A stretch of 64,000 nt of DNA from Leucoraja erinacea. Lineage: Eukaryota. Both the position numbers and the translations under genes were made by a program. Numbering within the stretch: the stretch's first letter is position 1; each line of letters opens with the position of its first letter. The stretch spans positions 11,842,001-11,906,000 of the forward strand of contig NC_073415.1 of the NCBI RefSeq assembly GCF_028641065.1. Reading direction: 5' to 3'. Below are positions 42,208-45,200 of the stretch, piece after piece. The notes below the pieces were generated by a model. That model was not told the origin of the DNA and searched no databases. It saw only the letters and a list, made by a program, of their open reading frames with translations.

Positions 42208-45200
42208 GATGGATTCTTAGAGCAGCTTGTACTGGAGCCTACCAGGGAGAAGGCAATTCTGGATTTAGTGTTGTGTCATGAACAGGATTTGACAAGGGAA
42301 CTCAAGGTAAAGGAGCCATTAGGAGGAAGTGACCATCATATGGTCATGTTTAATCTACAATTGGAGAGGGAGAAGGGTAAATCGGAGGTGTCAGTGTTAC
42401 AGTTGAACAAAGGGGACTATGGAGCCATGAGGGAGGAGCTGGCCAAAATTGACTGGAATGATACTCTAGCAGGGATGACAGTGGAGCAACAATGGCAGGT
42501 ATTTCTGGGAATAATACAGAAGGTGCAGGAGCAGTTCATTCCAAATAGGAAGAGAGATTCCAATGGGAGTAAGGGGCGACTGTGGCTGACAAGGGAAGTC
42601 AGGGACAGTATAAAAATTAAAGATAAGTATAACGTAACAAAGATGAGCAGGAAGCCAGAGGATTGGGTAACGTTTAAAGAGCAACAGAAGATAACTAAAA
42701 AGGCAATACGGGGAGAAAAGATGAGGTACGAAGGTAAGCTAGCCAGGAATATAACGGAGGATAGTAAAAGCTTCAGGTATGTGAAGAGGAAAAAAATAGT
42801 TGAGACCAAAGTTGGACCCTTGAAGACTGAAAAGGGTGAATTTATTATGGGGAACAAGGAAATGGCAGATGAGTTGAACAGGTACTTTGGATCCGTCTTC
42901 ACTAAGGAAGACGCAAACAATCTTCCTGATATATTAGTGGATCAGGGGTGATGGAGGAACTGAAGGAAATCCATATTAGGCAGGAAATGGTGTTGGATAG
43001 ACTGATGGGACTGAAGGCTGATAAATCCCCAGGGCTTGATGTTCTGCATCCCAGGGTACTTAAGGGAGTGGCTCTAGAAATTGTGGAGGCATTGGTGATA
43101 ATTTTCCAATGTTCTATAGATTCGGGATCAGTTCCTGTGGATTGGAGGGTAGCTAATGTTCTCTCACTTTTTAAGAAAGACGGGAGAGAGAAAACGGAAT
43201 TATAGACCAGTCAGCCTGACATGGGTGGTGGGGAAGATGCTGGAGTCCATTATAAAAGATGAAATAGCGGCACATTTGGATAGCAGTAACAGGTCCTGTC
43301 CCACTTTGCGAATTTTACAGAGACTGCGAGCGTCAGTGACTGACGCCCGTAAAACCGTCAAGTTGTACGACGTACACGCTGACGTACGCTGTCCTGCGGG
43401 TGATGTCCGGTTAGGGTCAGGGTTAGGGACCACAGATGGGATGTAGAATATTCTTCCTTCAATGCATGGATTTTAAACATTAATATATTAAAATTAATAC
43501 AATAAAATCAATTGTGCAAATGAAAAGATGTCTGAAACGTTCAGTTTTATTTACAGATGTATTGGTCAAGTTCCAAATCTAATCACCGTATCTAACTTTT
43601 CACAGGGATGGTTCAGTCAATGTAGACTGATCTCCCCTCTCCCCCTTCTTCCCTTCCCCCCTCATCCTCCCTTCTACCCTCTCCACTCTTCTCCCCCTTC
43701 TCCACTCCAAACCCTTCCCCTCACATCCCCTTCTCCCCCCCCTCCTTCCCTTCTCCAAACCCCCACTTTCCCCGATGCCCCCCATTTGTGGACCCAACCT
43801 GCCACCAGCGAATATCCGCACACTATCCCACACACTAGGGACAATTTATACAAATCCTAGCCCTAACACTAACCCTAACACAAACCCTAACACACCCTAA
43901 TACAACCCCTAACACTAACTAACCCTAACCACAAGTCTAACTCTAGGTAGATAGGCTTGGTATAAGTATAAGTTGTCCCTGGCATGTGTGGGAGAGTGCT
44001 CAGGATCGCTGGTTGGTGCGGACTCAGTGGGCTGAAGGGCAATGTATCACTGAATGTGACACAGTGGCCCCAAACTCGAACCCCCAATGTTCTGTCTGCT
44101 CCTCATGGGAACTAAACTTGGCCAGGAGTTGTCCCAGAGGACAGAACTCTCTTCCAATTGTCTCTCCAAACCCCCAGAGGCAGCAGCTTTCCCTCTGAAA
44201 AGTTAGAGACGGTGACTGGAGATAGAAGCAGACCAATACATCTGTAAATAAAACTGAACAACTCAGACATATTTTAATTTGTCCAATTGATTTTATTGTA
44301 TTCGTTTTAATATATTAATGTTTAAAATCCATGCATTGAAGGAAGAATATTTTACAACCCATCCATGGTCCCCAACCCTAACCCAAACCGGGCGTCACCC
44401 ACAGGACAGCATACGTCAGCGTGTGACAGCACAAAATTGGGGCACATGGTATTGGGGGTAGAGTGCTGACATGGATGGAAAATTGGTTGGCAGACAGGAA
44501 ACAAAGAGTCAGGATTAACGGGTCCCTTTCAGAATGGCAGGCAGTGACTAGTGGGGTACCGCAAGGTTTGGTGCTGGGACCGCACTATTTACAATATCTT
44601 AATGATTTAGGTGAAGGGATTACAAGTAACATTAGCAAATTTGCAGATGACACAAAGCTGGGTGGCAGTGTGAGCTGTGAGGAGGATGCTATGAGAATGC
44701 AGGGTGACTTGGACAGGTTGGGCGAGCGGGCGGGCAGATGCAGTTTAATGTGGATAAATGTGAGGTTATCCACTTTGGTAGCAAAAACAGGAAGGCAGAT
44801 TATTATCTAAATTACGTCAAATTGGGAATAGGGAAAGTACAATGGGACTTGGGGGTCCTTGTTCATCAGTCCATGAAAGTAAGCATGCAGGTACAGCAGG
44901 CAGTGATGAAAGTCAATGGCATTTTGGCCTTCATAAAAAGGAATTGTGTACAGGGCCCTAGTGAAACCATACCTGGAGTATTGTGCGCAGTTTTGCTCTC
45001 CAAATTTGAGGAAGGACATTCTAGCTATTGAGGGAGTGCAGCGTAGGTTCACAAGGTTAATCCCGGGATGGTGGGACTGTCATATGCTGAGAGAATGGAG
45101 CGGCTGGGCTTGTATACTCTGGAATTTAGAAAGATGAGAGGGGATCTTATTGAAACATGTAAGATTATTAAGGGTCTGGACACGTTAGAGACAGGACACA

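What the first reader, a model, noticed from the sequence alone, without database searches (positions are those of the whole stretch)
43291..44429. Three-copy nested-palindrome element with a Harbinger-like end, SINE-derived inner arms and a telomere-like centre
Seen: the left terminus (G)GYCYTGTCCCACT is shared with the MITEs at 28550, 29762 and 7079. The ~235-bp AT-rich outer inverted arms (43373-43607 vs 44190-44424) each contain GGTTAGGG/CCCTAACC. The inner inverted arms are V-SINE tail fragments (about 43800-43852 vs 43960-44030), and the centre is CCCTAA/CACTAA repeats (43856-43945). Other copies are at 50850-52316 (same CR1 site, so a segmental duplicate) and 61280-61860 (different flanks). 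The right TIR is missing and adjacent CR1 sequence is deleted. Inference: this is a composite non-autonomous foldback element I do not recognise as a described family.
Basis: partly seen in the sequence, partly recalled or inferred. Interest (0 to 1): 0.7.

Follow-up and report, generated by a model that had tools for sequence, protein, structure and literature searches.

The report
Damaged copy of palindromic DNA transposon
This nested palindrome is real and its parts occur in many variants in four related genomes, so it is most likely a broken, probably inactive copy of a non-coding cut-and-paste transposon that picked up a piece of another repeat: an ordinary kind of mobile DNA with an unusual internal layout.

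Summary
The anatomy is confirmed: 235-bp outer inverted arms (87% complementary), shorter SINE-derived inner arms, a hexamer-repeat centre, a left tip shared with nearby MITEs, no right tip, and copies at 50850 and 61278. Contigs of four coded organisms cover 30 of 30 bins, with dozens of variant contigs at most sites. Four of seven listed contigs that reach the left tip run on into non-CR1 sequence. At 19 of 23 listed arm sites the majority letter equals the opposite arm's letter, so both arms likely decayed from one terminal repeat of about 320 bp. Best reading: a dispersed non-autonomous PHIS-type (Harbinger/NuwaII-like) element that captured the 3' half of a V-SINE, partly duplicated in reverse. 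This copy lost its right tip and about 80-95 bp of host CR1; copy 2 is a segmental duplicate. The centre looks like a slippage microsatellite, not telomerase-added DNA (copy 2: 0 CCCTAA in 377 bp). Not shown: a contig spanning the whole element, its own target duplication, or a transposase partner. Dfam and Repbase could not be checked. New member of a known kind; modest interest.

The parts
42208..43293 (+). Host CR1-type LINE, 5' part (ORF2 fragment running into the start of the RT domain); its last three bases AGG are shared with the element tip
Evidence: Translation; weak RVT_1 match at model positions 3-34, E 0.035, below Pfam cut-off; 109-144 contigs per run continue as intact LINE behind 43293 (table 7).
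43291..43373 (+). Segment A: left tip and outer 83 bp of the long terminal repeat, with internal hairpin GCGTCAG-TGA-CTGACGC
   Evidence: Alignable over about 45-53 bp to both ends of the MITE at 28550-28779; three contigs stop aligning exactly at 43291 (table 8); hairpin
43374..43608 (+). Segment B: left 235-bp arm, with hexamer seed at 43409-43428
   Evidence: 58-68 variant contigs per run at 43446
43609..43803 (+). Segment C: short unique stretch plus pyrimidine-rich low-complexity tract
   Evidence: majority letters at 43676, 43680, 43797 and 43803 in other genomes equal copy 2's letters as read
43804..43855 (-). Segment D': inverted partial copy of the captured V-SINE piece (left inner arm)
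   Evidence: shares with D a shortened form not seen in the SINE majority (loose ends at 44003)
43856..43939 (+). Segment T: degenerate CCCTAA/CACTAA hexamer tract, length-variable between copies
   Evidence: 37 bp in copy 3, 377 bp in copy 2; replaced by 24-25 other letters in some contigs (table 5c)
43940..44056 (+). Segment D: 3' half of a V-SINE, from just after the V domain to the tail (right inner arm = 43966-44013)
   Evidence: 76% to the SINE at 60440-60528; that SINE's 5' part matches the V domain printed for MER6/Ac1 in the supplement of PMC6887750 (compared by eye); SINE tail consensus behind 44040
44057..44189 (+). Segment E: unique spacer of unknown origin
   Evidence: In the window only in copies 1 and 2; 8-34 variant contigs per run at 44159
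44190..44424 (-). Segment B': right 235-bp arm; the outer 83 bp (A') are missing
44425..45486 (+). Host CR1-type LINE, 3' part, resuming after a deletion of about 150-165 bp (about 80-95 bp in copy 2)
   Evidence: RVT_1 resumes at model position 93, E 2.3e-5; copy 2 keeps 69 bp more; the deletion size is an estimate from model positions
50850..52311 (+). Copy 2: segmental duplicate of copy 1 with its CR1 host; centre expanded to 377 bp
   Evidence: Left arms 96.6%, right arms 93.2%, CR1 flanks 95-98.6% alike, against 87-90% between left and right arms
61278..61857 (+). Copy 3: tip, arm start, 53-unit GGTTAG-type array, jump to D', short centre, start of D; unrelated flanks
   Evidence: 87% to copy 1 over A and the arm start; no flank homology

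Best explanation
This is likely a damaged copy of a dispersed, non-coding, cut-and-paste DNA transposon of about 1.2 kb, with terminal inverted repeats of probably about 320 bp and ends resembling the PHIS (Harbinger/NuwaII) type, which would have been moved by a transposase encoded elsewhere. Inferred history: (1) a long-TIR MITE took up the 3' half of a V-SINE; (2) about 50 bp of that piece were copied in reverse across a short spacer, most simply by template switching in an element already prone to fold, giving the inner palindrome; (3) this form spread before several related cartilaginous fishes diverged; (4) one copy entered a CR1 LINE here, and its junctions were made or remade by repair rather than clean integration (AGG shared at the left, no TNA, right tip and about 80-95 bp of LINE lost); (5) the two arms then drifted apart by 13%, the block was duplicated locally, and hexamer seeds in the arm and the centre expanded by slippage independently in different copies. 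Shown: anatomy, multi-variant presence in four organisms, a sharp left boundary, one arm type. Inferred: transposase class, the complete right tip in other copies, and the order of events.
For: (4 runs, organisms A, B, F, C; likeness 85): 30 of 30 bins covered in each run. Variant contigs per run: 25-46 at 43312 (A), 58-68 at 43446 (B), 11-75 at 43680 (C), 17-77 at 43797 (C-D' junction), 5-17 at 43855 (D'-centre), 8-34 at 44159 (E). Summed depths there are 195-88,000, against 6-69 for the 32 individually listed contigs; the tool warns this is no copy number. Of 7 listed pieces that reach the left end, 4 go on for 58-3037 letters unlike the CR1 flank (3 stop exactly at 43291), 2 are too short to tell, and 1 continues into CR1. 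Internally deleted forms are seen (43424 to 44401, 43348 to 44386, 43706 to 43937). 19 of 23 listed arm differences change this copy's letter to that of its partner arm, and 2 more converge on one third letter. Both inner arms share a shortened SINE form absent from the SINE majority. The related MITE at 28550-28779 has paired tips and a TCA duplication in C-TCA-G; 7079 ends in TTA-G; 20 runs of 10 studies (five organism labels plus unlabelled among those with codes A-F, one run without label) hold 9-37% of the words.
Against: No contig spans the whole element, so the composite as a mobile unit is pieced together from junctions. Two junctions are thinly covered: 43631 (0, 8, 3, 0 contigs) and 44049 (2-6 contigs). 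None of the three window copies has TNA before the tip (AAC, TAC, TAC), and none has a right tip, so no target duplication is shown for this family. The flank letters of the other genomes' contigs were not printed, and my reading of minus-strand record coordinates is an inference. Only 32 of 84,524 pieces, 40 of 157 difference rows and 24 of 1,898 loose ends were shown. One contig of organism C bridges the same CR1-element junction (130 nt, 15 differences), so part of the signal is this same locus. Run X1 holds near-identical pieces (0 differences over 126 nt) and may be the window's own species. No transposase partner was found or could be searched for in this genome.
Confidence: 0.72

Rival explanations
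1. The mobile family is a simpler long-TIR MITE (A+B ... B'+A') with variable interiors; the SINE-bearing nested form is only a minority subfamily or was assembled late.
For: Arm depth at 43446 (17,600-88,300) exceeds depth at the C-D' junction (500-12,900) in every run; several contigs leave the alignment at 43608-43611 or inside the right arm; the B-C junction is thinly covered.
Against: C-D', D'-centre and E-B' junctions are each found in several to dozens of variant contigs in all four runs; copy 3, with unrelated flanks, also carries D', centre and the start of D. Contigs leaving at 43611 can be right arms going on into E (joint 43611 to 44118, opposite strands).
Confidence: 0.25
2. A local rearrangement product: a template-switching patchwork of a MITE end, SINE pieces and a microsatellite, multiplied only by tandem or segmental duplication of this unstable region, here and in relatives.
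For: 42110-60118 is a patchwork of local duplicates; a diverged paralogue of the block's X piece (77-83%) lies 1.16 kb before copy 3, close to the 83-89% between copies 1 and 3; no TNA at any left junction; one organism-C contig has the same CR1 junction.
Against: Four contigs in three organisms join the left tip to non-CR1 sequence, three exactly at 43291; dozens of variants per site; a single arm type; copy 3 shares neither flank.
Confidence: 0.1
3. The centre is an interstitial telomere added by telomerase at a break or fold-back junction between two SINE halves.
For: 6 CCCTAA units in copy 1's centre, between inverted SINE pieces.
Against: Copy 2's 377-bp expansion has 0 CCCTAA; copy 3's arm array mixes at least six hexamer types with only 7 CCCTAA in 320 bp; all units face one way; other contigs have a short non-telomeric spacer; the same hexamers are built into the arms.
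Confidence: 0.05
4. The ends belong to another TIR superfamily, for example Kolobok or a P/Mutator-type foldback, and the 3-bp duplication at 28550 is chance.
For: Only one complete TIR pair with a duplication was available; the motif TGTCCCAC was not found in the text of the PHIS paper's three supplements (one file was cut when stored, and figures are not held).
Against: The TCA/TCA duplication in C-TCA-G and the TTA-G at 7079 fit the published C|TNA|G; no 4-bp or 8-9-bp duplication is seen at 28550.
Confidence: 0.1

Closest known systems
NuwaII / PIF-Harbinger groups of the PHIS superfamily (PMC4482050: sections 5 and 8, search passages and supplement hits read)
   Same: Tip starts with A/G; the sister MITE shows a 3-bp TNA duplication in C|TNA|G; PIF/Harbinger TIRs range up to 1042 bp
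   Different: NuwaII TIRs are reported as 13-46 bp, mostly starting GG, in 12 species with no cartilaginous fish listed; here about 320 bp starting AGG, non-coding, with SINE cargo; this family's own duplication was not seen
MER6 / MER6A (PMC6887750: abstract, section 2.4 and supplement passages read)
   Same: A MITE that captured a V-SINE segment between DNA-transposon ends
   Different: MER6 has Tc1/Mariner ends and carries the V domain itself, once; this element carries the part after the V domain, with a second inverted partial copy, and has PHIS-like ends
HE1-type V-SINE of sharks and rays (listed in a table of PMC3747384; passages only)
   Same: Source of both inner arms; many free copies in the window and in the four runs
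   Different: The HE1 sequence itself was not available for a test; the name rests on the V-domain match plus recall
Galileo / Foldback-type long-TIR elements (PMC3573991: abstract only)
   Same: Long, internally repetitive TIRs; two-TIR, solo-TIR and rearranged copies
   Different: Galileo is a P-superfamily element of Drosophila; only the shape is shared

Membership tests
PIF/Harbinger (strict) | TWA target-site duplication | tested here: inconclusive
   No copy of this family has both ends; left flanks are AAC, TAC, TAC. The sister MITE has TCA, which is not TWA; 7079 has TTA on its one visible side.
NuwaII (PHIS) | Target C|TNA|G | tested here: inconclusive
   Met by the sister MITE at 28550-28779 and by the half site at 7079; not met at the left junction of 3 of 3 copies of this family, whose junctions look repaired.
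NuwaII (PHIS) | TIR 13-46 bp, mostly starting GG | tested here: not met
   Tip starts AGG at 43291 and the inverted repeat is at least 235 bp, probably about 320 bp; the published range refers to families found by transposase and structure searches.
PHIS superfamily | Autonomous partner with DDE transposase and Myb/SANT ORF sharing the tip | not testable with these tools
   No genome is held. Of 132 stop-to-stop frames of 110 aa or more in the window, 16 frames or pieces near the finding were scanned against Pfam; none hit a transposase.
MITE / non-autonomous TIR element | No coding capacity | tested here: met
   The only frame of 110 aa or more inside the element (43498-43860) has no Pfam match.
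MITE / non-autonomous TIR element | Many dispersed copies with a sharp common end | tested here: met
   Left end only: 4 of 7 listed pieces go on into non-CR1 flanks, 3 exactly from 43291; 25-68 variant contigs per run at A and B sites.
MITE / non-autonomous TIR element | Paired terminal inverted repeats | tested here: inconclusive
   235 bp paired; the outer 83 bp are missing on the right in both long copies. One joint (43371 to 44421, opposite strands, run X3) fits a complete right end but also a left end with right-like letters.
V-SINE (source of inner arms) | V conserved domain upstream of the captured piece | tested here: met
   The window SINE at 60362-60552 matches the V domain printed for MER6/Ac1, and segment D begins in the stretch that follows it (compared by eye).
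Interstitial telomere (telomerase-added) | Run of canonical TTAGGG units | tested here: not met
   6 CCCTAA in 90 bp (copy 1), 0 in 377 bp (copy 2), 7 in 320 bp (copy 3 arm).
A family already named in Dfam/Repbase | Full-length match to a library consensus | not testable with these tools
   No repeat library is on hand.

The most novel reading that the evidence does not exclude
An undescribed NuwaII-type foldback family of cartilaginous fishes whose standard form is a palindrome within a palindrome, and whose built-in hexamer seeds repeatedly grow into telomere-like arrays at two different sites (arm in copy 3, centre in copy 2). It would then be a mobile source of interstitial telomere-like DNA and of flush deletions and local duplications in these genomes.
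Probability: 0.2. Interest if true: 0.5.

Novelty: new member of a known kind. Interest (0 to 1): 0.27.

Why it matters
Mainly for repeat annotation: it points to a multi-copy PHIS-type non-autonomous family in a lineage where such elements are thinly described. Harbinger was reported undetected in elephant shark (PMC9179366, passages) and is only listed for whale shark (PMC8455134, passage). It is a second case, after MER6, of a DNA transposon spreading a V-SINE piece. Left-right arm divergence gives an LTR-style clock for each insertion. If hexamer expansion is common across copies, the family could account for part of the interstitial telomere-like signal in these genomes. Nothing found suggests a host function.

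Tried and rejected
Whole-genome search: no genome is held. Exact-motif scans found 0 matches in metagenome contigs (21-mer; 30-mer) and viral contigs; these collections are not expected to hold this host. Earlier scan notes: nothing near, in relatives, by words or by sequence, except one unrelated bacterial adhesin sharing 5 of 133 words. Eight literature searches showed no description of this family in the listings seen; several listings were partial (20 of 50, 70, 27 and 42 papers). The tip-motif listing had titles unrelated to transposons and I opened none. Subscription papers, Dfam, Repbase and bioRxiv supplements were out of reach. Runs with small word shares that I did not lay (organisms D and E and the remaining runs) are not counted as evidence. 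Depth over the centre (689 in X8 to 375,000 in X18) was ignored, as unrelated hexamer arrays can be laid there. The DNA fold (-273 kcal/mol) has no shuffle control and only restates the inverted repeats. The 10 letters after the right arm in copy 2 resemble the expected right tip (9 of 10), but they also read as the resumed LINE frame; left undecided. No inverted match between C and E (score 12). A 15-bp match between the E/B' junction and the inverted repeat at 57341-57816 was judged within chance by a rough estimate.

Full report
Verdict. The structure is real and belongs, most likely, to a dispersed non-autonomous DNA-transposon family. It is a new member of a known kind, with an unusual interior; interest 0.27.

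1. Observation. The outer arms 43374-43608 and 44190-44424 are 235 nt and 87% complementary. The inner arms 43804-43851 and 43966-44013 align with score 44 against a maximum of 27 in 1000 shuffles. The centre is a degenerate hexamer tract of 13 units. The tip motif occurs 6 times in the window against 0.56 expected. Copy 2 (50850-52311) sits in the same CR1 site; copy 3 (61278-61857) is a deleted left half with unrelated flanks. The 83 bp expected beyond the right arm are absent in copies 1 and 2.

2. Anatomy. The order is A (83 bp, with the tip), B (arm), C (pyrimidine-rich), D' (inverted SINE piece), T (hexamers), D (SINE 3' half, about 43940-44056), E (unique), B'. A aligns over about 50 bp with both ends of the MITE at 28550-28779. 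That MITE has paired tips and a TCA duplication in the context C-TCA-G; the half element at 7079 ends in TTA-G. PMC4482050 (sections 5 and 8 read) gives TWA for PIF/Harbinger and C|TNA|G for NuwaII, so the ends are PHIS-like and lean to NuwaII, on thin numbers. D matches the SINE at 60362-60552, whose 5' part matches the V domain printed in the supplement of PMC6887750 (by eye). D' and D share a shortened form that the SINE majority lacks (against the loose ends at 44003), so they likely descend from one captured piece.

3. Family or local product. No genome is held. Twenty runs of 10 studies hold 9-37% of the sampled words, none half. I laid four of them, one per coded organism A, B, F and C, on 43200-44520 at 85% likeness. 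All 30 bins are covered in all four. Variant contigs per run number 25-46 in A, 58-68 in B, 11-75 in C, 17-77 at the C-D' junction, 5-17 at D'-T and 8-34 in E. Summed depths there are mostly hundreds of times those of single listed contigs (6-69), though the tool states that this is no copy number. Of the 7 listed pieces that reach the left end, 4 (organisms A, B, B, C) go on for 58-3037 letters unlike CR1, three of them from exactly 43291; 2 are too short to tell; 1 (organism C) continues into CR1 as here, which suggests this insertion is older than that species split. For minus-strand records I infer that record position 1 is the higher coordinate. Internally deleted forms and forms with a 24-25-letter non-telomeric spacer between D' and D also occur. 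Limits: no piece spans the element; the B-C and D-E junctions are thinly covered (0-8 and 2-6 contigs); only 32 of 84,524 pieces were shown; X1 may be the window's own species.

4. One terminal repeat. Left arms of copies 1 and 2 are 96.6% alike, right arms 93.2%, left against right 87-90%, and the CR1 flanks 95-98.6%. So copy 2 is a duplicate made after the arms had drifted. Of the 23 listed majority differences that fall in the arms (from 40 rows shown of 157), 19 change this copy's letter to that of its partner arm and 2 more meet at a third letter. Cross-mapping alone would not give such majorities on both arms, so the family likely has one arm sequence and each arm here carries about 6% private change.

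5. The junctions. The intact LINE continues behind 43293, so AGG is shared by LINE and tip. The three bases before the tip are AAC, TAC and TAC in the three copies, never TNA. From RVT_1 model positions (34 on the left, 93 on the right) about 150-165 bp of LINE are missing in copy 1 and, with 69 bp more retained, about 80-95 bp in copy 2. An intact left tip with microhomology, a shortened right end, a host deletion and no duplication are explained most simply by repair joining of an excised or abortively moving copy. Normal insertion followed by deletions is about as likely; I put this step at even odds.

6. The centre. Copy 1 has 6 CCCTAA in 90 bp, copy 2 none in 377 bp (35 CTCTAA, 26 CACTAA), and copy 3 has a 320-bp mixed array grown inside the arm instead. 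Independent slippage from built-in seeds explains this; telomerase addition does not.

7. Against my reading. The region 42110-60118 is a patchwork of local duplicates, and a 77-83% paralogue of one block piece lies 1.16 kb before copy 3, not far from the 83-89% between copies 1 and 3. Copy 3 could therefore be an old co-duplicate that lost its flanks. Arms are better covered than the interior, so the nested form may be a subfamily. No target duplication and no transposase partner were shown for this family.

8. Known relatives and novelty. MER6 is a MITE that captured a V-SINE (PMC6887750, abstract and section 2.4). Long, rearranging TIRs are known from Galileo (PMC3573991, abstract) and up to 1042 bp in PIF/Harbinger. 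PIF-Harbinger is listed for whale shark (PMC8455134, passage) and was not detected in elephant shark (PMC9179366, passages). Passages of two batoid genome papers did not mention Harbinger (PMC12361510; bioRxiv 10.64898/2026.10.27.761883, supplements closed). Eight searches showed no description of this family in the listings seen, but repeat libraries could not be checked and an unnamed automatic consensus may well exist. What is unusual is the inverted second copy of the SINE piece and the two expansion-prone hexamer sites; neither implies a new mechanism.

Noticed in passing
window 28550-28779: Complete 230-bp MITE with the same tip at both ends and a TCA target duplication in C-TCA-G, the NuwaII-type target.
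   Followed up: partly
window 29544-29762 and about 6890-7079: Two more MITEs with the same tip; each has only its right tip intact. The first has about 80-bp inverted arms.
   Followed up: partly
window 42110-54150: Patchwork tandem duplication: four partial copies of one CR1 segment (42208, 46296, 48178, 50039), G-rich tracts, a 17-bp minisatellite and a 140-bp AT-rich piece that recurs, diverged, at 59976-60118.
   Followed up: partly
window 54480-59420: Dense pile of short, interleaved fragments of one LINE in both orientations, with many 86-100% local duplicates; looks RTE-like by recall, weak RVT_1 match only.
   Followed up: no
window 57341-57816: Separate inverted repeat with 117-bp arms, 85% complementary, inside that pile; possibly another MITE.
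   Followed up: no
window 41915-42109 (minus strand): GC-rich 65-codon open stretch next to the duplicated block that reads like an exon; no Pfam match.
   Followed up: partly
window 1-376, 3708-3948, 24081-24213: Tandem arrays (33- and 66-bp units) built from a piece of the window's commonest short repeat.
   Followed up: no
window 21836-22236, 33967-34316, 37010-37611: Three assembly gaps (N runs of 401, 350 and 602 bases), none near the finding.
   Followed up: yes
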